Origin: Escherichia phage ECO319P1
Length of the DNA stretch: 64,000 nucleotides
Reading direction: 5' to 3' (one strand)
Sequence record: OP172790
The notes under the pieces are model-generated. The model was not told the origin of the DNA and did no database searches. It was given only the letters and a program-made list of their open reading frames with translations. Made by a program: the position numbers and the translations under genes. Below are positions 19,706 through 37,273 of the stretch, one piece after another. Positions within the stretch are counted from its first letter, which is position 1. The number at the start of each line of letters is the position of its first letter.

Positions 19706-19711
19706 GTAATA

Positions 19712-19736
19712 GGCTGGCGGATGCTGGCCTTTTCTG
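19712..19736 (+). terminator. rho-independent terminator
   Basis: 7-bp stem GGCTGGC / GCTGGCC (two wobble pairs), GGAT loop, then TTTTCTG. Confidence 0.55.
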
Positions 19737-19755
19737 TCTATACAAGGAGTGTATA

Positions 19756-21879
19756 ATGGTTCGTGTAACTAAACGTGATGGTAAGAACGTCGAGTTTGAT
19801 ATTAACCGTGTGATTAATGCCATTATGGCTGCTCAAAGCAATTTGGGTAAATCAAACTTTGATGAAGCACTGTCGATTGCAATGGCTGTGCAAGACCGAT
19901 ACATCAACGAAGAAAGTGTAACGATTGCTGATATTCAGAGTATGGTTGAAGACCTGCTGATGGTGAAAGACCCAGAGGTGGCTCGTAAGTATATCGAATA
20001 TCGTGCAAAGCGTGACCGTGCTCGTGAGGAACAGTCCCCATTGGCGGTTGCCATTCGTGGATTAGTGGAGCAGACGGATGAATCAATCCTCAAAGAAAAC
20101 GCTAACAAGGACGCAAAAGTCTTCCCTGTACAGCGAGATTTACTGGCAGGCGTGGTGTCTAAGCACTTCGCTCGCAATTACCTTCTTCCTCGTGATATTG
20201 TTGATGCTCACGAGAGAGGCGAAATTCATTACCACGATTTGGACTACTCTCCATTCCTACCTATGACCAACTGTTGTTTGGTTGACCTCAAGGGTATGTT
20301 GAAGAATGGTTTCAAGTTAGGTAACGCTCAGATTGAGTCACCGAAATCTATTGGTGTGGCATGTGCAGTAATGGCTCAGATTACCGCTCAAGTTGCTTCT
20401 CACCAGTACGGTGGGACGACGTTCGCTAATATTGACCAAGTACTCGCACCGTATGCAGAGACAACCTTTAATAAGCACATGCAACGTGGTTATGATTGGG
20501 GGGTTTCAGATACGGAAGCCTATGCCAAAGAACTCACTGTTAAAGAAATTTATGATGGGATTCAAGCATATGAATACGAAATTAATACCCTCTTCACCAC
20601 AAATGGACAGCAACCATTCGTTACTGTTACATTCGGTATGGGAACTAGCTGGTTCGAACGAGAAATCCAGAAAGCAATCCTCAAGGTTCGTATTAAGGGT
20701 CTCGGCGCGGAAGGTCTCACTGCGGTTTTCCCGAAACTCGTAATGTTCATGGACGAGGGTATCAACCTTAAACCGGAAGACCCGAATTATGATATTAAGC
20801 AGCTTGCACTTGAATGCTCCTCCAAGCGTCTGTATCCAGATATTATCAGCGCGAAAGCTAACAGAGCTATCACTGGCTCAAACGTACCTGTTAGTCCTAT
20901 GGGGTGTCGTTCTTTCCTCAGTGTGTGGAAGGACGGAGATGGAAATGAGGTGCTCGACGGACGCAACAACCTCGGCGTTGTTAGTCTCAACCTTCCTCGT
21001 ATTGCCATCGAATCAGGGAAGGATTTCAACAAATTCCTCACTATCCTTGACGAACGCCTTACACTTGCTAAAAGAGCACTTGATACCCGCATTGAACGCT
21101 TACGTGGTGTTAAAGCTGCTGTTGCCCCAATTCTCTACACCGAGGGAGCGTTTGGAGTTCGTCTCCAACCCGATGATGATATCATCAATATCTTCAAGCA
21201 CGGTCGAAGCTCTATTAGCTTGGGATACATCGGACTCCATGAAGTCGGACTTCTGATGTGGGATAAGTCCCCTTCGGATGATGAAGAAGTTGCACGTTCT
21301 TGTCGAGCAATTATTCGTCATTTAGCTAATGCTACTGAGAGGTGGAAGGAAGAGTCTGAAGAGGGCTGGGGTTATAGCTTATACGCTACACCTTCAGAGT
21401 CTCTGTGTGACCGATTCTGTCGTTTGGATAAAGAACAATTTGGGGAGATTGCTGGTGTCACTGACAAAGATTATTACACTAATAGTTTCCATCAGGATGT
21501 TTATAAGCATTCTAACCCTTTCGACAAGATTGACCATGAAGCGCCTTATCACTTTATTTCAAGTGCGGGTCATATTAGCTATGCTGAGTTTCCGAATGTT
21601 CGTAACAACCTCCAAGGTTTGGAAACAGTTTGGGACTACGCAATGAGCCATCTGGACTACTTCGGGACAAACACTCCGAGCGATAAATGCTTGAAGTGCC
21701 ACTTCGAAGGTGAGTTCAAGATTAACAGTGAAGGTTTCCACTGTCCGAATTGCGGCAATCATGACAGCAAATCAATGTCAGTGATTCGTCGTGTATGTGG
21801 GTATTTGGGTTCTCCAAATGCTCGTGGATTTAACCACGGAAAGAACGAGGAGGTCATTCGTCGTGTCAAACATGTCTGA
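19756..21879 (+). CDS. nrdD: anaerobic ribonucleoside-triphosphate reductase (class III)
   Basis: AAGGAG RBS; N-terminal ATP-cone, C-terminal Zn ribbon CLKCHF...CPNCGNHD and glycyl-radical motif RRVCGYLGSP. Confidence 0.9.
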   Translation: MVRVTKRDGKNVEFDINRVINAIMAAQSNLGKSNFDEALSIAMAVQDRYINEESVTIADIQSMVEDLLMVKDPEVARKYIEYRAKRDRAREEQSPLAVAIRGLVEQTDESILKENANKDAKVFPVQRDLLAGVVSKHFARNYLLPRDIVDAHERGEIHYHDLDYSPFLPMTNCCLVDLKGMLKNGFKLGNAQIESPKSIGVACAVMAQITAQVASHQYGGTTFANIDQVLAPYAETTFNKHMQRGYDWGVSDTEAYAKELTVKEIYDGIQAYEYEINTLFTTNGQQPFVTVTFGMGTSWFEREIQKAILKVRIKGLGAEGLTAVFPKLVMFMDEGINLKPEDPNYDIKQLALECSSKRLYPDIISAKANRAITGSNVPVSPMGCRSFLSVWKDGDGNEVLDGRNNLGVVSLNLPRIAIESGKDFNKFLTILDERLTLAKRALDTRIERLRGVKAAVAPILYTEGAFGVRLQPDDDIINIFKHGRSSISLGYIGLHEVGLLMWDKSPSDDEEVARSCRAIIRHLANATERWKEESEEGWGYSLYATPSESLCDRFCRLDKEQFGEIAGVTDKDYYTNSFHQDVYKHSNPFDKIDHEAPYHFISSAGHISYAEFPNVRNNLQGLETVWDYAMSHLDYFGTNTPSDKCLKCHFEGEFKINSEGFHCPNCGNHDSKSMSVIRRVCGYLGSPNARGFNHGKNEEVIRRVKHV

Positions 21880-21904
21880 TGAACATCCGGATTTTTAGTA
21901 TCGA

Positions 21905-21932
21905 GGGGCTCCTGCGGGAGCCTTTTCTTTTT
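21905..21932 (+). terminator. rho-independent terminator
   Basis: Stem GGCTCC / GGAGCC with UGCG loop followed by TTTTCTTTTT. Confidence 0.7.
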
Positions 21933-21979
21933 GGAGGTTTAAATGATTGTTCGTAACCGATTGACTGGTCAATTCGAAA

Positions 21980-22483
21980 ATGCCACTTTCAAAGATGGCT
22001 GTTGGGGTTTCCATGAAACTGACGTACAAGAAGGGCTGCCTGATTGCAGCACTGAAGAACAAAGAAGTGGAAGCGATAGCTCACCAAGCTAATTGCTTTT
22101 GCACCATGAAGTCTGGCATAGCACCACAGATTGCTAATGCTTGGCCTCAAGTCCGTGAAGTCGATAAGTTGACTAACTACGGTGACAAGGATAAGATGGG
22201 TTCATACTCACTTGCCACTGTTCCCGAAGGTTTTGTGTTCAACATCTATGGTCAATACCATTGGAATCGGAGAAACGCTGGTTATGGCACTTCTTATGAG
22301 CATCTTGGGATGGGGCTGTCTAGCGTCGCTGACTTTATGGTTAATCATAAGGTTCAAACTTTGGGTCTGCCTCGAATTGGTTGTGGACTTGCTGGAGGCG
22401 ATTGGGGGATTGTAGAACACCTAATCAAACACCACTTTGCACACACCGACATTGAAGTAATTGTCTACGAACTGGAGAAGTAA
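21980..22483 (+). CDS. macro domain protein (ADP-ribose binding/processing); start ambiguous
   Basis: VEAIAHQANC and LPRIGCGLAGGDW resemble macro-domain AIVNAAN and GxGxxG blocks; strong GGAGG RBS at 21932 instead precedes an ATG at 21943 in a different frame. Confidence 0.5.
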   Translation: MPLSKMAVGVSMKLTYKKGCLIAALKNKEVEAIAHQANCFCTMKSGIAPQIANAWPQVREVDKLTNYGDKDKMGSYSLATVPEGFVFNIYGQYHWNRRNAGYGTSYEHLGMGLSSVADFMVNHKVQTLGLPRIGCGLAGGDWGIVEHLIKHHFAHTDIEVIVYELEK

Positions 22484-23610
22484 TGTTAAAGTTAAAAGTA
22501 CTGGAAGAACTCGGTAAGCCATACAAAATCTTCACAGACCATGTGGAGAGCAGTGCTATTGAGCAGTTTGTTGCAGTGATGCAGCAGCCTGATGTGAAAC
22601 AAGGTGCATTAATGCCTGATGTTCATGCAGGTTATGTTCTGCCAATTGGTGGTGTAGTTGCTACTGAGTGGACAATCTACCCATCGTTTGTCGGTTACGA
22701 CATTGGTTGTGGTGTCTGCACCATGCCAACGGATATCAGTGCTCTCGACTTACTGGAAAACCCAGCTAAGTATAAAGCAGCAGTTGAAAAGGTTGTACCT
22801 GTGGGCTTCACTGTCCATCAGCAACCATTCGACTTAGCTGAACTGGAACGCCACATTGGTCGTGCTCCAGAAAGTATTCGTGACATTGCTGAGAGCCATC
22901 TGACTCAGGTTGGTACTCTTGGTGGTGGTAATCACTTTGTTGAAATCGGTATCGCTGAGAAAGATGGTCGTGTTCACATCAGCATTCACTCAGGCTCTCG
23001 TGGCATGGGTGCTCGTGTTGCTGAGAAATACATGCAGCTTTCAGGTGGTGAAGGTATCAACCCAATTGACACTCGTGAACCACTTGGTCGTGAGTATCTG
23101 GCTGCTATGAATTACTGCTTACGTTGGGCATTGTTCAACCGTAAGATGATGGTTAAGAATATTATGGAAGAGTTAGGTCTGGAGTTTAACACCTATCGTA
23201 CACCTGATATCTTCATCAACCGTAATCATAACCACGCAGAATTCAAGGATGGTTTGTGGATTCATCGTAAGGGAGCTACACATGCTGAAGATGGAATGTT
23301 CGGCGTTATCCCAGCTAACATGCGTGATGGAGTTTACATTGTACGTGGGCGCGGTAACCCTGACTCTCTTTGCTCTTCTTCTCACGGCGCTGGTCGTGTC
23401 ATGTCTCGGTCAAAAGCCAAAAAGACTTTCTCTCTGGAAGACTTCCAGTATCAGATGGGTAATGTCGATGCTGATGGGTTTACTATTGATGAAAAGCGTA
23501 TTGACGAAGCACCGGGTGCATATAAAGACATTCACGAAGTGATGAAAAATCAGACTGACTTGATTGACATCATTGACCATGTTAAACCAGTTGTAAACGT
23601 TAAGGGTTAA
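22483..23610 (+). CDS. rtcB: RtcB-type RNA ligase
   Basis: Hallmark RtcB blocks MPDVHAGY, GGGNHFVEI, NHNHAEF, SSSHGAGR. Confidence 0.9.
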   Translation: MLKLKVLEELGKPYKIFTDHVESSAIEQFVAVMQQPDVKQGALMPDVHAGYVLPIGGVVATEWTIYPSFVGYDIGCGVCTMPTDISALDLLENPAKYKAAVEKVVPVGFTVHQQPFDLAELERHIGRAPESIRDIAESHLTQVGTLGGGNHFVEIGIAEKDGRVHISIHSGSRGMGARVAEKYMQLSGGEGINPIDTREPLGREYLAAMNYCLRWALFNRKMMVKNIMEELGLEFNTYRTPDIFINRNHNHAEFKDGLWIHRKGATHAEDGMFGVIPANMRDGVYIVRGRGNPDSLCSSSHGAGRVMSRSKAKKTFSLEDFQYQMGNVDADGFTIDEKRIDEAPGAYKDIHEVMKNQTDLIDIIDHVKPVVNVKG

Positions 23611-23612
23611 TT

Positions 23613-23861
23613 ATGAGCTTCACAACAATGCCAACTTGTCCACGCTGTAGCTTCAAGATGCACATCAGTGCTCGCGGTCAGTATAGTTGTTCCAATTGTG
23701 GACACCGTAAGGATATTCCGGGAAGTTCTTCTAACAGTGGAACTCCGGCATATGACCCTTGGGTTATGAGTCAGTACGACTCTACTCCGAGCTATGACCC
23801 AACACCATCTTACTCAAGTGACTGCTCAAGCTCTGACTTTGGCAGTTGCTCTTTCGACTAA
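23613..23861 (+). CDS. small zinc-ribbon protein
   Basis: CPRC...CSNC pair; AAGGG RBS; Ser/Pro/Tyr-rich tail. Confidence 0.5.
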   Translation: MSFTTMPTCPRCSFKMHISARGQYSCSNCGHRKDIPGSSSNSGTPAYDPWVMSQYDSTPSYDPTPSYSSDCSSSDFGSCSFD

Positions 23862-23870
23862 GGCGGAATA

Positions 23871-24371
23871 ATGAATTACCATCAATATTACCCAACGGAT
23901 ATGCTAAATGGGCCGGGAATCAGGAACGTACTCTTCGTCAGTGGTTGCACACACGGATGCAAAGGTTGTTACAATGAGTCTACTTGGAATCCAAAATCGG
24001 GTATGGCCTTCACAAAAGAGTTGGAAGACCAGATTATCCGAGACCTCCAAGATACGCGAATCAAGCGTGATGGACTCACCCTCTCCGGAGGTGACCCGCT
24101 TCATGAAAGAAATATTCTACCCCTCATTCAGTTAGTACAGCGAGTGAGAAAAGAGTGCCCCGATAAGACAATCTGGATGTGGACTGGATATACGCTTCCT
24201 GAACTGGAGGCTATGCGTGACCACACTCAGGTTCACAGTGACCGGTATTATCTGGCAACACTTGTTGATGTTCTTGTTGATGGTAAGTTTGTTCAAGAGT
24301 TGCATGACCCTACGCTGAAGTTTGTTGGGTCGTCCAATCAAAACATTATCGAAATTAAAAATGTATCGTAA
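23871..24371 (+). CDS. nrdG: anaerobic ribonucleotide reductase activating protein (radical SAM)
   Basis: CxxxCxxC cluster in GCTHGCKGCYN near N-terminus; size and adjacency to nrdD. Confidence 0.85.
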   Translation: MNYHQYYPTDMLNGPGIRNVLFVSGCTHGCKGCYNESTWNPKSGMAFTKELEDQIIRDLQDTRIKRDGLTLSGGDPLHERNILPLIQLVQRVRKECPDKTIWMWTGYTLPELEAMRDHTQVHSDRYYLATLVDVLVDGKFVQELHDPTLKFVGSSNQNIIEIKNVS

Positions 24372-24534
24372 CCTGCAACGTCGAAATCCAGAATGTGACT
24401 GGTGTTTTTGTCTCTTACAAGTTGTAAGGGGTGAAGATTATAATGACTATTATAAATGTCCGCAATGTGGTGAGACTACTCCAATGCCTCAACCCAACTT
24501 CGACGATTACGACGATTTAGATTACTTAAATTAA
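24361..24534 (+). CDS. small zinc-ribbon protein
   Basis: CDWC...CPQC pair; ATG 24361 overlaps nrdG 3' end. Confidence 0.35.
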   Translation: MYRNLQRRNPECDWCFCLLQVVRGEDYNDYYKCPQCGETTPMPQPNFDDYDDLDYLN

Positions 24535-25036: not shown

Positions 25037-25038
25037 GG

Positions 25039-25064
25039 AAGCTGCCTTCGGGCGGCTTTTGTTG
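25039..25064 (+). terminator. rho-independent terminator (UUCG tetraloop)
   Basis: AGCTGCC / GGCGGCT stem, TTCG loop, then TTTTGTTG. Confidence 0.65.
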
Positions 25065-25206
25065 TCTATGAGATTCAAGTTCTGTAAATGTTGTAACAAG
25101 TGGCTTATGCCATTTGATTTTAAACTCTCTGAGAATTCGGATGATGGACGCTTTCCGATTTGCAAAGAGTGTGTTGAAGATTTATACTTAACTCAGGTAG
25201 AAAACT

Positions 25207-35376: not shown

Positions 35377-35397
35377 TAATTATTGCACATTATAATA
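35377..35397 (+). promoter_or_regulatory. copy 3 of conserved 21-bp motif TAATTATTGCACATTATAATA
   Basis: Identical to copy 2; 43 bp upstream of ATG 35440. Confidence 0.5.
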
Positions 35398-35439
35398 GAG
35401 TTCTTTCTTAACACAATTCAAAAGGATTTGTCAATACTT

Positions 35440-36060
35440 ATGTTAAAATTTATTTGGTCTATTATAGCCACTGTAGGTGTACTTGCTTCCTGTTACATAT
35501 CTGATGCTTCTCCTATCATCACAACAGCTTCTGTCATTGGTGTCTTATTTGTTCTTGGTGTAGCTTTCAAGAATGCTTGGACAAACCTGTTAGGTGCTGC
35601 ATTAACGCTGATATATGGATACCTTTCTTACAGTGCAGGTTATTATGCTAACGCACTGATAAATGTGACAGTGCTATTCCCACTACAGTTAATAGCTTTC
35701 TGGTTCTGGAAGAAGACAGAAGGTAAGACGTTTACATTAACTGAAGATTGGAAGAAAGCAATCATAGTGTTATCTGGTATAGGTATCCTCATTTCCTGCA
35801 CACTGACTAAATCCTATGGTTCACATCTTTGGCTTCATGATGGAATCTCAGCGGTATTAGTTATTGTTGCTACTTTCCTCCTGATGTTAAAAGTGAAAGA
35901 ACAGTGGTATGCTTGGATTCCTTATAATGCACTTGAAGTGTTTATGTGGTTCATGGCTGCTTCTTTAAATCCTGATATGTTGGCTATCTTTGTGATGCGT
36001 AGCATCTTCTTTGCTAACTCTCTGATTGGTGCTTACGAGTGGTTCGGTAAGAAATCTTAA
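35440..36060 (+). CDS. polytopic membrane protein, possibly PnuC-like nicotinamide riboside transporter
   Basis: 7-8 predicted TM helices, Trp-rich; segment ALINVTVLFPLQLIAFWFW reminiscent of PnuC; tentative. Track start 35383 lies inside conserved motif. Confidence 0.4.
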   Translation: MLKFIWSIIATVGVLASCYISDASPIITTASVIGVLFVLGVAFKNAWTNLLGAALTLIYGYLSYSAGYYANALINVTVLFPLQLIAFWFWKKTEGKTFTLTEDWKKAIIVLSGIGILISCTLTKSYGSHLWLHDGISAVLVIVATFLLMLKVKEQWYAWIPYNALEVFMWFMAASLNPDMLAIFVMRSIFFANSLIGAYEWFGKKS

Positions 36061-37171: not shown

Positions 37172-37247
37172 TGCTTGGGCACGGCTGAGACAGCGATATC
37201 TTGATTTGCTCGAATGGACTGAATCTGTTAAGCATACCAGAAAATAA
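36978..37247 (+). CDS. Rz1: o-spanin (Rz1-like outer membrane lipoprotein), embedded in +1 frame of Rz
   Basis: Strong AAGGAGG RBS; signal peptide with lipobox MIGC; Pro-rich; starts inside Rz and extends past it. Confidence 0.65.
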   Translation: MLKGLMLTMLCLMMIGCGSTTIPTPQQEPEIPVPAKYKVKPEEPVAMPLSPSKLKSLEVVKDNNDAWARLRQRYLDLLEWTESVKHTRK

Positions 37248-37249
37248 GA

Positions 37250-37268
37250 AAGGGGCGCAATGCCCCTA
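37250..37268. terminator. bidirectional terminator between convergent transcription units
   Basis: GGGGC / GCCCC hairpin flanked by A-rich tract upstream and T-rich tract downstream, between plus-strand Rz1 and minus-strand 1304-aa gene. Confidence 0.6.
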
Positions 37269-37273
37269 TTCTT

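What the first reader, a model, noticed from the sequence alone, without database searches (positions are those of the whole stretch)
19756..24371. Macro-domain and RtcB genes inserted between nrdD and nrdG, with terminators on both sides of nrdD
The anaerobic reductase and its activase are normally adjacent, but here a macro-domain gene, RtcB and a zinc-ribbon gene lie between them. nrdD is bracketed by hairpin terminators (19712-19736 and 21905-21932), so it appears monocistronic. Macro domains act on ADP-ribose derivatives, including the ADP-ribose-1''-phosphate left by RNA-ligation pathways, so macro plus RtcB may form one RNA-repair or de-ADP-ribosylation unit.
Basis: partly seen in the sequence, partly recalled or inferred. 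Interest (0 to 1): 0.55.

Follow-up and report, generated by a model that had tools for sequence, protein, structure and literature searches.

The report
Macro and RtcB genes between nrdD/nrdG
In this Cronobacter-type phage, two unrelated genes sit between the two genes of the anaerobic ribonucleotide reductase: one probably strips a host-added ADP-ribose mark from phage DNA, and one re-joins cut RNA. Published relatives have the same layout and the two genes do not look like one machine, so this is an ordinary accessory-gene cluster.

Summary
The window is a Crifsvirus phage (Grimontviridae), about 88-89% identical in DNA to Cronobacter phages GAP52 and A24. It carries nrdD, a macrodomain gene, rtcB, a zinc-ribbon ORF and nrdG, tightly packed on one strand. 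Hairpin plus T-run terminators lie on both sides of nrdD.

The macro ORF passes fold recognition (pLDDT 93.6). However, it belongs to the SCO6735/Bt_1257 subclass of TARG1-like macrodomains and is a homologue of T4 Tk.4 (AdfM). A 2025 preprint shows that Tk.4 protects T4 from DarTG2, which ADP-ribosylates DNA.

RtcB ligation leaves no 2'-phosphate and so yields no ADP-ribose-1''-phosphate. No Tpt1/KptA or 2H Pfam domain was detected in the ORFs scanned.

Macro-rtcB adjacency is confined to the Crifsvirus-like clade:
- 0 of 48 other viral RtcB loci have this macro nearby.
- 0 of 80 other viral macro loci have RtcB nearby, whereas 23 of 80 have NadV.

The order Dps-nrdD-macro is ancestral in the family, because phage 7-11 keeps an nrdD ATP-cone remnant at that position. 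rtcB is therefore the newcomer.

The terminator after nrdD is missing in A24 and replaced by a homing endonuclease in GAP52. This is an ordinary accessory cluster already present in public genomes.

The parts
19711..19740 (+). Intrinsic-terminator-like hairpin (8 bp stem, GGAU loop) plus a T-rich tail, between the Dps-like gene and nrdD
   Evidence: Found by the scan. Fold energy -13.4 kcal/mol, z -1.9. Conserved in GAP52, A24 and L009: 100% of cells pair and 2 pairs are compensatory.
19756..21879 (+). nrdD, class III (anaerobic) ribonucleoside-triphosphate reductase, 707 aa, with an N-terminal ATP-cone and a C-terminal glycyl-radical domain
   Evidence: NCBIfam NF006732, 1029 bits (cut-off 657). 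Pfam NRDD 589 bits, Gly_radical and ATP-cone. 91% identical to GAP52 NrdD.
21903..21932 (+). Strong hairpin (10 bp stem, UGCG loop) followed by TTTTCTTTTT. A terminator or attenuator after nrdD, specific to this genome.
   Evidence: -19.9 kcal/mol, z -3.1. Absent in A24 (a 38-nt gap) and replaced by a homing-endonuclease gene in GAP52 and L009.
21943..22092 (+). Small upstream ORF of 49 codons with a GGAGG ribosome-binding site. Only the first 23 codons (21943-22011) are conserved. It contains the macro gene's Shine-Dalgarno sequence and overlaps the macro start in the -1 frame.
   Evidence: The peptide MIVRNRLTGQFENATFKDGCWGF is conserved, with synonymous codon changes, in GAP52, A24 and L009/L010. 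Related peptides occur at the same offset (70 nt) in L066, L076 and L080. No PHROG hit.
22013..22483 (+). Macrodomain protein of 156 aa from Met at 22013 (the longest ORF starts at 21980). AdfM/Tk.4-like, in the SCO6735/Bt_1257 subclass of TARG1/ALC1-like ADP-ribosyl glycohydrolases.
   Evidence: - AF2 pLDDT 93.6; residues 1-10 of the long form are low-confidence.
- Foldseek: TARG1 4.6e-13, Bt_1257, DarG, Poa1p.
- Profile against PDB sequences: Bt_1257 1e-24, SCO6735 5e-23.
- T4 Tk.4: 33% identity, E 1e-25, aligned from its Met1 to window Met12.
- 7-11 gp071: 43% identity.
22483..23610 (+). RtcB-family RNA ligase (joins 3'-phosphate or 2',3'-cyclic phosphate ends to 5'-OH ends), short form of 375 aa. 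Its start overlaps the macro stop (TAATG).
   Evidence: - Pfam RtcB 269.7 bits, covering profile positions 1-426.
- Metal and GMP ligands align with P. horikoshii D95, C98, N202, H203, H234, H329, H404 = D73, C76, N150, H151, H169, H249, H301.
- Overlap seen.
23613..23861 (+). Small zinc-ribbon protein of 82 aa (CPRC...CSNC) with a Ser/Pro/Tyr/Asp-rich tail. Function unknown.
   Evidence: Sub-threshold Pfam zinc-ribbon hits. PHROG_29294, unknown function. A 51-aa version precedes nrdG in L009.
23871..24371 (+). nrdG, radical-SAM activase of NrdD, 166 aa
   Evidence: NCBIfam NF008335, 233.5 bits (cut-off 199). TIGR02491, 202 bits. Pfam Fer4_12.
24362..24534 (+). Flanking second small zinc-ribbon ORF (CDWC...CPQC) with an acidic Asp/Tyr tail. 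It overlaps the end of nrdG.
   Evidence: Read from the sequence. PHROG_29481, unknown function.
25037..25066 (+). Next terminator-like hairpin downstream. It probably marks the end of the transcription unit that contains macro-rtcB-nrdG.

Best explanation
This is the nucleotide-metabolism and replication module of a Crifsvirus phage. The class III ribonucleotide reductase genes nrdD and nrdG are separated by two independent accessory genes and a small zinc-ribbon ORF. All are co-oriented and translationally packed.

Macro gene. It encodes an AdfM/Tk.4-type ADP-ribosyl glycohydrolase. It most probably removes ADP-ribose that DarT-type host toxins attach to thymidines of single-stranded phage DNA, which would restore replication. 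This is inferred from homology and active-site signature.

rtcB. It encodes a stand-alone GTP-dependent RNA ligase with intact catalytic residues. It most probably reseals tRNA or rRNA cut by host anticodon nucleases or toxin RNases, which leave 2',3'-cyclic phosphate and 5'-OH ends. This is inferred.

Relation between the two. They share a counter-defence theme but do not work on a common substrate or pathway. Their juxtaposition arose when rtcB landed downstream of a macro gene that already followed nrdD in the ancestor of the family.

Hairpins. They are intrinsic terminators or attenuators. The one after nrdD, where present, would lower expression of the downstream genes relative to NrdD, and read-through would still supply NrdG. 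This is inferred.
For: Identity and fold of the macro protein:
- Fold and family.
- It shares SCO6735 His24/Asn27/Gln85 (window H35/N38/Q92), the PRIGCGLAGGxW loop and the 5-residue longer loop. It lacks TARG1 Asp125 (Ala in its place), and no conserved Lys sits at the Lys84 position (residue roles from PMC9411070).
- SCO6735 hydrolyses thymidine-ADPr DNA and rescues cells from DarT.
- T4 Tk.4 is homologous (E 1e-25). Its knockout sensitises T4 to DarTG2 (bioRxiv 10.1101/2025.11.20.689424).

RtcB:
- The catalytic residues are complete.
- Phage RtcBs are viewed as repair ligases for RNase-cut tRNA (PMC7824862).

Independence of the two genes:
- 0 of 48 RtcB loci have this macro family within 6 kb.
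- 0 of 80 macro loci have RtcB within 6 kb, but 23 have NadV and 22 have Prs.
- RtcB has no recurrent neighbour.
- The Privateervirus RtcB (50% identity) sits elsewhere, next to an ATPase.

Gene-order history:
- BUCT695: Dps-nrdD-grcA-like-macro, without rtcB.
- 7-11: Dps, then a 99-aa nrdD ATP-cone remnant (47% identity, E 7e-24), then macro.
- L007/L011: macro-nrdD-phoH-nrdG.
- L009: nrdD-HEG-macro-99aa-rtcB-...-nrdG.

Packing: the TAATG overlap, with 2- and 9-nt gaps between the following genes.
Against: - No biochemical or genetic data exist for this protein or any Grimontviridae macro. Identity to T4 Tk.4 is only 33% and to SCO6735 similar.
- Across other phage families this macro family recurs next to the NAD+ salvage genes NadV and Prs. 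This fits a role on soluble ADP-ribose or NAD-derived molecules at least as well as a DNA role (view of PMC9503650).
- SCO6735 also removes ADP-ribose from uracil in RNA (PMC13036486), so an RNA substrate is not excluded.
- The target of the phage RtcB is unknown.
- The transcript structure is inferred from sequence only.
- The window phage's host is unknown, and whether its hosts carry DarT-type systems was not examined.
Confidence: 0.68

Rival explanations
1. Macro and RtcB form one RNA-repair unit: the macro protein clears an ADP-ribose-phosphate by-product of ligation, or removes ADP-ribose from damaged RNA, before or after RtcB reseals it.
For: - The two genes overlap by one base and are co-transcribed in the window, GAP52 and A24.
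- The structural neighbours of the macro fold include yeast Poa1p, an ADP-ribose-1''-phosphate phosphatase.
- SCO6735-type macrodomains can remove ADP-ribose from uracil in RNA.
- The phage has a second RNA ligase, Rnl2.
Against: - RtcB chemistry produces no 2'-phosphate junction and hence no Appr>p or Appr1p (established biochemistry).
- No Tpt1/KptA, 2H or Pnk domain was found in the window ORFs scanned, and none is annotated in GAP52.
- The adjacency is absent in 48 RtcB loci and 80 macro loci elsewhere. In L009 a 99-aa ORF interrupts it.
- The macro gene sits at this position in relatives that lack rtcB.
- Similarity to Poa1p (E 3e-11) is much weaker than to Bt_1257 or SCO6735 (E 1e-24).
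- SCO6735 was reported inactive on 5'-phosphate-linked and 2'-OH-linked RNA ADP-ribose in the results of PMC11833690, although that paper's discussion words this differently.
Confidence: 0.08
2. The macro protein acts mainly on soluble ADP-ribose derivatives as part of the phage's NAD+ economy. Candidate substrates are O-acetyl-ADP-ribose, ADPr-based immune signals, or ADPr released by host NADases. It would work alongside NadV, Prs, a PnuC-like transporter and a Nudix protein, rather than on DNA.
For: - 23 of 80 macro loci from other phages have NadV, and 22 have Prs, within 6 kb. They are often directly adjacent or flank the macro gene.
- GAP52 encodes NadV and Prs.
- The window encodes a PnuC-like NMN transporter (89.5 bits) and a weak Nudix hit.
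- Comparative-genomics prediction in PMC9503650.
Against: - The only member of the family with genetic data, T4 Tk.4, gives protection against DarTG2, which ADP-ribosylates DNA.
- The closest characterised enzyme, SCO6735, prefers thymidine-ADPr DNA.
- In this phage the macro gene lies about 22 kb from the NadV and Prs genes of its relative.
Confidence: 0.2
3. The macro protein is functionally tied to the anaerobic reductase, for example by regulating or repairing NrdD. That would explain why it sits beside nrdD in several genera.
For: nrdD and macro are neighbours in Crifsvirus, Libingvirus and the L007-type phages, and as a remnant in 7-11.
Against: - The neighbourhood is explained by vertical synteny within one phage family.
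- Outside the family only 2-3 of 80 macro loci have nrdD within 6 kb.
- T4 tk.4 is about 15 kb from nrdD/nrdG.
- L013 keeps the macro gene without any nrdD.
- No known chemistry links the two.
Confidence: 0.03

Closest known systems
Cronobacter phages vB_CsaP_GAP52 (NC_019402) and A24 (NC_070973), genus Crifsvirus, Grimontviridae
   Same: 88-89% nucleotide identity over the whole 4.9-kb region. The gene order is identical: nrdD, macro (annotated 'phosphatase'), RtcB ('tRNA/RNA-splicing ligase'), a small ORF, nrdG.
   Different: GAP52 has a homing-endonuclease gene between nrdD and macro. A24 lacks the terminator hairpin after nrdD. The window is a distinct species-level relative.
T4 Tk.4 = AdfM (anti-DarT factor Macrodomain)
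   Same: Homologous over the full length (33% identity, E 1e-25). The conserved His, Asn and Gln are retained. It is a stand-alone macro protein of about 155 aa in a lytic phage. Its knockout sensitises T4 to DarTG2.
   Different: Low identity and a different genomic context: T4 tk.4 lies between tk and vs. Function has not been tested for the Grimontviridae proteins.
SCO6735 (Streptomyces coelicolor, PDB 5E3B) and Bt_1257 (PDB 2FG1/2AFC), a subclass of ALC1/TARG1-like macrodomains
   Same: These are the best sequence-profile matches among solved structures (1e-24 and 5e-23). They share the His/Asn/Gln triad, the PRIGCGLAGGxW loop and the 5-residue longer 'mobile loop'. SCO6735 removes thymidine-linked ADP-ribose from DNA.
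   Different: They are cellular proteins, not phage-encoded. SCO6735 Lys34 is not conserved at the same column: the window has Ser45, with Lys44 adjacent.
DarG antitoxin and human TARG1
   Same: Same fold class: TM 0.75-0.77 normalised to the query, Foldseek E 1e-10 to 1e-13.
   Different: - There is no DarT-binding C-terminal domain. NCBIfam DarG gives 46 bits against a cut-off of 250, covering only positions 10-148 of the 338-position profile.
- The TARG1 Lys84/Asp125 pair and DarG Lys80 are not conserved; Gln and Ala take their places.
E. coli RtcB / RtcBA RNA-repair operon and archaeal RtcB (P. horikoshii, PDB 4DWQ)
   Same: Same family, with all metal-binding residues and the GMP-histidine present.
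   Different: It is shorter (375 aa against 408-481 aa). It falls below the NCBIfam equivalog cut-offs (188 against 407 bits). No RtcA, RtcR or archease partner is nearby.
T4 nrdD-mobC-nrdG
   Same: Phage class III reductase genes separated by other cargo, and nrdD as a homing-endonuclease hotspot.
   Different: In T4 the intervening gene is only a homing endonuclease. Here it is macro, rtcB and a zinc-ribbon ORF. In L007-type relatives it is phoH.

Membership tests
Macrodomain superfamily | Three-layer alpha/beta/alpha macro fold with an ADP-ribose-binding cleft | tested here: met
   AF2 model pLDDT 93.6, pTM 0.88. 241 PDB matches at E<=1e-3; all 38 top-ranked matches are macrodomains. Pfam Macro alone is just below its cut-off (20.3 against 22 bits).
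SCO6735/Bt_1257 subclass of ALC1/TARG1-like macrodomains (thymidine-ADPr DNA hydrolases) | Gln in place of the catalytic Lys of TARG1/DarG, together with the conserved Asn and His of the substrate loop | tested here: met
   Window H35, N38 and Q92 align with SCO6735 H24, N27 and Q85. Q92 is invariant, and H35 and N38 are at least 90% conserved, in 79 homologues. Residue roles come from PMC9411070.
SCO6735/Bt_1257 subclass of ALC1/TARG1-like macrodomains (thymidine-ADPr DNA hydrolases) | 'Mobile loop' five residues longer than in TARG1 and DarG | tested here: met
   The profile alignment to TARG1 opens a 5-residue gap in TARG1 right after the Gln strand. There is no gap against Bt_1257 or SCO6735. 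The feature is described.
SCO6735/Bt_1257 subclass of ALC1/TARG1-like macrodomains (thymidine-ADPr DNA hydrolases) | Hydrolysis of thymidine-linked ADP-ribose on single-stranded DNA | not testable with these tools
   Needs an enzyme assay on DarT-modified oligonucleotides.
AdfM (T4 Tk.4) anti-DarTG2 factors | Full-length homology to T4 Tk.4 | tested here: met
   BLASTP 33% identity over 159 columns, E 1e-25, aligned Met1 to Met12.
AdfM (T4 Tk.4) anti-DarTG2 factors | Protects the phage against DarTG2 | not testable with these tools
   Genetic test only. Shown for T4 in bioRxiv 10.1101/2025.11.20.689424.
DarG antitoxin | Macrodomain with a catalytic Lys, plus a C-terminal DarT-binding domain, encoded next to darT | tested here: not met
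   NCBIfam DarG gives 46 bits against a cut-off of 250, matching only the N-terminal 10-148 of 338 profile positions. The protein is 156-167 aa. Gln replaces the Lys. No darT-like neighbour.
TARG1 (OARD1) | Catalytic Lys84/Asp125 pair | tested here: not met
   Ala138 aligns with Asp125. No conserved Lys is found at the Lys84 position.
Poa1p-type ADP-ribose-1''-phosphate phosphatase working downstream of Tpt1 | Presence of a Tpt1/KptA 2'-phosphotransferase (the source of Appr>p) and a 2H/cyclic phosphodiesterase in the same system | tested here: not met
   No PTS_2-RNA, 2H/LigT or Pnk domain in the 30 early/middle ORFs of 100 aa or more that were scanned, nor in the cluster ORFs scanned. Not every ORF of the window was scanned. 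None is annotated in GAP52. Poa1p is a weaker match (E 3e-11) than Bt_1257.
RtcB RNA ligase | Full-length RtcB domain with the metal ligands (Asp, Cys, three His) and the GMP-accepting His | tested here: met
   Pfam PF01139, 269.7 bits, profile positions 1-426. D73, C76, N150, H151, H169, H249 and H301 align to P. horikoshii D95, C98, N202, H203, H234, H329 and H404, and are invariant in 7 phage homologues.
RtcB RNA ligase | GTP- and Mn2+-dependent sealing of 3'-P or 2',3'>P ends with 5'-OH ends | not testable with these tools
   Needs an enzyme assay.
Class III ribonucleotide reductase NrdD/NrdG | Equivalog-level matches for both subunits, the glycyl-radical motif, and the radical-SAM CxxxCxxC | tested here: met
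   NF006732, 1029 bits (cut-off 657), and NF008335, 233.5 bits (cut-off 199). RVCGY and CTHGCKGC are read in the translations.
Conserved macro-RtcB gene pair (putative operon-level module) | Recurrent adjacency across unrelated phage lineages | tested here: not met
   0 of 48 RtcB loci and 0 of 80 macro loci. The pair is seen only in GAP52, A24, the window and L009/L010.

The most novel reading that the evidence does not exclude
A conserved 23-codon upstream ORF (21943-22011) precedes the macro gene. It has its own strong ribosome-binding site, contains the macro gene's Shine-Dalgarno sequence, and always runs into the macro start one base out of frame. It could be a dedicated translational control device for this anti-defence gene, for example a leader peptide that gates macro translation, or, less likely, a +1 frameshift that adds an N-terminal extension. 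Alternatively, in this clade the macro protein may strip base-linked ADP-ribose from RNA that RtcB then reseals, which would make a two-step repair pathway for ADP-ribosylated and cleaved RNA.
Probability: 0.1. Interest if true: 0.55.

Novelty: new member of a known kind. Interest (0 to 1): 0.24.

Why it matters
The finding has little consequence in itself. The same cluster has been in GenBank since the GAP52 genome, and each gene belongs to a described family. Three points are of modest use:

1. It extends the newly named AdfM (T4 Tk.4) anti-DarT macrodomain family to Grimontviridae. It also shows that these phage proteins carry the SCO6735-type Gln active site rather than the TARG1/DarG Lys. 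The database label 'phosphatase' is therefore probably misleading.
2. Gene adjacency in tightly packed phage modules is weak evidence for a shared pathway. The recurrent partners of this macro family are the NAD+ salvage genes, not RtcB.
3. It documents the nrdD-nrdG interval as a cargo and homing-endonuclease hotspot.

Tried and rejected
- Pfam alone could not call the macro domain (20.3 bits against a cut-off of 22). Structure prediction and profile searches were needed.
- I looked for a phage promoter between the nrdD hairpin and the macro gene. I tried the sigma-70 consensus, the phiEco32 gp36 motif AATGTA and its variants, and the shared TGTCTAT string seen after two hairpins. None was enriched over shuffles or located there, so the transcript structure stays unresolved.
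- Rfam found only three tRNAs and no RNA element in the region.
- I tested whether RtcB has any recurrent neighbour in 47 viral loci. It has none; the largest cluster covers 6 loci and is ThyX-like.
- I considered that the macro ORF starts at 21980. This is unlikely: T4 and 7-11 homologues align from Met12, residues 1-10 have low model confidence, and nearly all of the 118 homologues start at the Met12-equivalent position rather than with a longer N-terminus.
- I considered that the upstream peptide is an in-frame N-terminal extension in some homologue. None of the 118 shows it.
- I considered that nrdD and nrdG were acquired around a resident macro gene in Crifsvirus only. This was rejected once the 7-11 ATP-cone remnant showed that nrdD-macro is ancestral.
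- The BUCT695 'GrcA' gene is not an NrdD fragment.

Full report
**What the window is.** The 4.9-kb region matches Cronobacter phages vB_CsaP_GAP52 and A24 (genus Crifsvirus, family Grimontviridae) at 88-89% nucleotide identity over 99% of its length. Their annotated gene order is the same as in the window. The window is therefore a new species-level relative of published phages. The region lies in the replication and nucleotide-metabolism module, whose order is primase-helicase, exonuclease, dCTP deaminase, thioredoxin, Dps-like protein, then nrdD through nrdG, then MazG and DNA polymerase I.

**Checking the observation.** All five ORFs are as described.
- nrdD (19756-21879) and nrdG (23871-24371) pass NCBIfam equivalog cut-offs by wide margins.
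- rtcB (22483-23610) is a full-length Pfam RtcB match at 270 bits.
- The 82-aa ORF has two CxxC pairs.
- The macro ORF is only a sub-threshold Pfam hit at 20.3 bits. An AlphaFold model built on 79 homologues has pLDDT 93.6. Its best structural matches are TARG1, Bt_1257, DarG and Poa1p, with TM 0.73-0.77.

Both hairpins exist, at 19711-19730 and 21903-21926, each followed by a T-run. The genes are tightly packed. The macro stop overlaps the rtcB start (TAATG). The next gaps are 2 nt and 9 nt.

**What kind of macrodomain it is.** A profile of the family matches solved-structure sequences in this order:
- Bt_1257, 1e-24
- SCO6735, 5e-23
- TARG1, 1e-20
- DarG, 5e-14
- Poa1p, 3e-11

The alignment shows the signature of the SCO6735/Bt_1257 subclass. 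His35, Asn38 and Gln92 correspond to SCO6735 His24, Asn27 and Gln85. The loop PRIGCGLAGGDW is shared. There is a five-residue longer loop after the Gln strand. TARG1 Asp125 is replaced by Ala, and no conserved Lys corresponds to TARG1 Lys84 or DarG Lys80. According to PMC9411070, SCO6735 lacks those Lys/Asp residues, depends on Gln85 and Asn27, and has this longer 'mobile loop'. It efficiently removes DarT-installed ADP-ribose from thymidine in single-stranded DNA and rescues cells from DarT.

The window protein is also homologous along its whole length to T4 Tk.4 (33% identity, E 1e-25) and to phage 7-11 gp071, which is annotated 'Tk.4' (43% identity). A November 2025 preprint reports that tk.4 is the single T4 gene required to resist DarTG2. 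The authors name it adfM.

The protein is not a DarG. It scores 46 bits against the 250-bit cut-off, and only the macro part of the profile is matched. The database label 'phosphatase' (PHROG_335) goes back to the A1pp-motif annotation of T4 Tk.4.

**RtcB.** Every catalytic residue of the P. horikoshii enzyme has its counterpart: D73, C76, N150, H151, H169, H249 and the GMP-accepting H301. All are invariant among seven phage homologues. It is a short form of 375 aa and falls below the NCBIfam equivalog cut-offs. Phage RtcBs are generally read as ligases that reseal RNA cut by metal-independent RNases (PMC7824862). That is my inference here too. The substrate is unknown.

**Are macro and RtcB a unit?** Three lines of evidence say no.

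First, chemistry, from established knowledge. RtcB joins 3'-phosphate or 2',3'-cyclic phosphate ends to 5'-OH ends without leaving a 2'-phosphate. ADP-ribose-1''-2''-cyclic phosphate and Appr1p arise only when Tpt1/KptA removes a junction 2'-phosphate after a Trl1- or Rnl-type ligation. Pfam scans of 30 early/middle ORFs of 100 aa or more, together with the cluster ORFs, found no Tpt1/KptA, 2H or Pnk domain, and GAP52 has none annotated.

Second, distribution.
- 48 viral-contig loci encode RtcB relatives at 35-51% identity, each with 6 kb of flank. None has a macro of this family.
- 80 viral-contig loci encode macro relatives at 33-46% identity. None has RtcB, while 23 have NadV and 22 have Prs, often directly adjacent (also seen).
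- RtcB has no recurrent neighbour at all.
- In Privateervirus, another genus of the same family, the 50%-identical RtcB lies elsewhere, next to an ATPase.

Third, history within the family.

| Phage or locus | Gene order |
|---|---|
| Libingvirus BUCT695 | Dps-nrdD-(GrcA-like)-macro; no rtcB |
| Salmonella phage 7-11 | Dps-(99-aa ORF)-macro |
| L007/L011 type | macro-..-nrdD-phoH-nrdG |
| L013 | macro; no nrdD, nrdG or rtcB |
| L009/L010 (closest non-Crifsvirus relative) | nrdD-HEG-macro-99aa-rtcB-87aa-66aa-ZnR-nrdG |

In 7-11 the 99-aa ORF is 47% identical (E 7e-24) to the ATP-cone of the window's NrdD, so it is an nrdD remnant. The order nrdD-macro is therefore ancestral. rtcB is a later arrival, and nrdD and nrdG are split by different cargo in different lineages. 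T4 likewise has nrdD-mobC-nrdG.

**The terminators.** The hairpin before nrdD is conserved, with two compensatory base-pair changes. All 32 cells pair, against 16-66% for slid controls, although there are only four sequences. It is followed by an invariant T-rich stretch and the nrdD ribosome-binding site.

The hairpin after nrdD is the more stable one (-19.9 kcal/mol, z -3.1), but it is a private feature of this genome. A24 has a 38-nt gap there, and GAP52 and L009 carry a homing-endonuclease gene instead.

No sigma-70-like site and no phiEco32-type gp36 motif lies between that hairpin and the macro gene (motif from PMC12276001). NrdD needs NrdG, so read-through is the simplest expectation. 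The hairpin would then act as an attenuator that sets NrdD above the downstream products. This is inference. Only transcript mapping can settle it.

**Most likely mechanism.** The macro protein probably removes DarT-type ADP-ribose from thymidines of phage single-stranded DNA, using Gln92 and Asn38 to position the distal ribose as proposed for SCO6735. Homology and active site are shown; activity is inferred. RtcB probably reseals RNase-cut tRNA or rRNA. The catalytic residues are shown to be intact; the substrate is inferred. The two share a theme, countering host attack, but not a pathway.

The main rival for the macro protein is a role on soluble ADP-ribose derivatives. Two observations suggest it. 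The first is the recurrent NadV/Prs linkage elsewhere. The second is the NAD+ toolkit of this phage group: NadV and Prs in GAP52, and a PnuC-like transporter and a weak Nudix hit in the window. I give this about 0.2. The two roles are not mutually exclusive.

**Novelty and verdict.** The cluster is already in public genomes and every gene belongs to a described family. What is new is only the assignment of the Grimontviridae 'phosphatase' to the AdfM/SCO6735 subclass, and the negative result on macro-RtcB coupling. Interest is low, at about 0.24.

The one unexplained item is a conserved 23-codon upstream ORF that overlaps the macro start. It is listed under things noticed in passing.

Noticed in passing
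window 21943-22092 (conserved part 21943-22011); also L001 8740-8808, L002 8305-8373, L009 7928-7996, L066 5931-5999, L076 5958-6026, L080 5931-5999: A 23-codon ORF lies directly upstream of the macro gene (MIVRNRLTGQFENATFKDGCWGF, with a GGAGG ribosome-binding site). It is conserved at the amino-acid level, with synonymous codon changes such as CGT to AGA. It contains the macro gene's Shine-Dalgarno sequence (TGGGG or TGGAG). It always runs into the macro ATG so that the macro gene is in its +1 frame. It occurs in Crifsvirus-like phages and in three distant viral contigs, and possibly in 7-11. It has no PHROG hit and is not annotated in GAP52 or A24. It may be a leader peptide or translational coupling device, or a frameshift site.
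   Followed up: partly
window 23613-23861 and 24362-24534: nrdG is flanked by two small zinc-ribbon ORFs of similar build: CxxC, then 11-17 residues, then CxxC, then a low-complexity acidic or aromatic Ser/Pro/Tyr/Asp tail. The second overlaps the end of nrdG. Both fall in PHROGs of unknown function (29294 and 29481).
   Followed up: partly
L006 (Salmonella phage 7-11) 48082-48381, minus strand: gp072, annotated as hypothetical, is a stand-alone copy or remnant of the NrdD ATP-cone domain. It is 47% identical to window NrdD residues 1-86 (E 7e-24). It sits between the Dps-like gene and the macro gene in a phage stretch that lacks the rest of nrdD and shows no nrdG.
   Followed up: yes
L066-L145 (80 viral contigs); for example L081, L107 and L077, where the macro gene lies between Prs and NadV: This macro family is recurrently adjacent to the NAD+ salvage genes NadV (23 of 80 loci) and Prs (22 of 80) in unrelated phages. 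These include Vibrio phages of about 128 kb and Pseudomonas PAK_P-type phages.
   Followed up: partly
window 35383-36060, 11152-11685 and 12620-13585: The window also encodes a PnuC-like nicotinamide-mononucleotide transporter (Pfam 89.5 bits), a weak Nudix hit (21.8 bits) and an Rnl2-type RNA ligase (RNA_ligase plus T4_Rnl2_C). The Rnl2 gene is a second RNA ligase in a phage where no polynucleotide kinase/phosphatase was detected.
   Followed up: partly
L001 8265-8753; L009 7322-7846; L010 3988-4512: A homing-endonuclease gene (HNH_3/AP2 type) overlaps the 3' end of nrdD in GAP52 and in two metagenomic relatives. It is absent from the window and from A24. In the window the same spot holds the terminator hairpin.
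   Followed up: partly
L065 (Aeromonas phage BUCT695) 6633-7007: A gene annotated as an 'autonomous glycyl radical cofactor' (GrcA-like) lies between nrdD and the macro gene. No nrdG is annotated in the 14-kb stretch examined. It is not similar to the window's NrdD.
   Followed up: partly
window 37244-37272: A bidirectional hairpin terminator lies at the point where the + strand early/middle block meets the - strand structural block. This coincides with the turn of the cumulative GC skew.
   Followed up: no
window 62263-62696, minus strand: Three tRNA genes (Phe-GAA, Pro-TGG, Trp-CCA) lie at the far end of the window.
   Followed up: no
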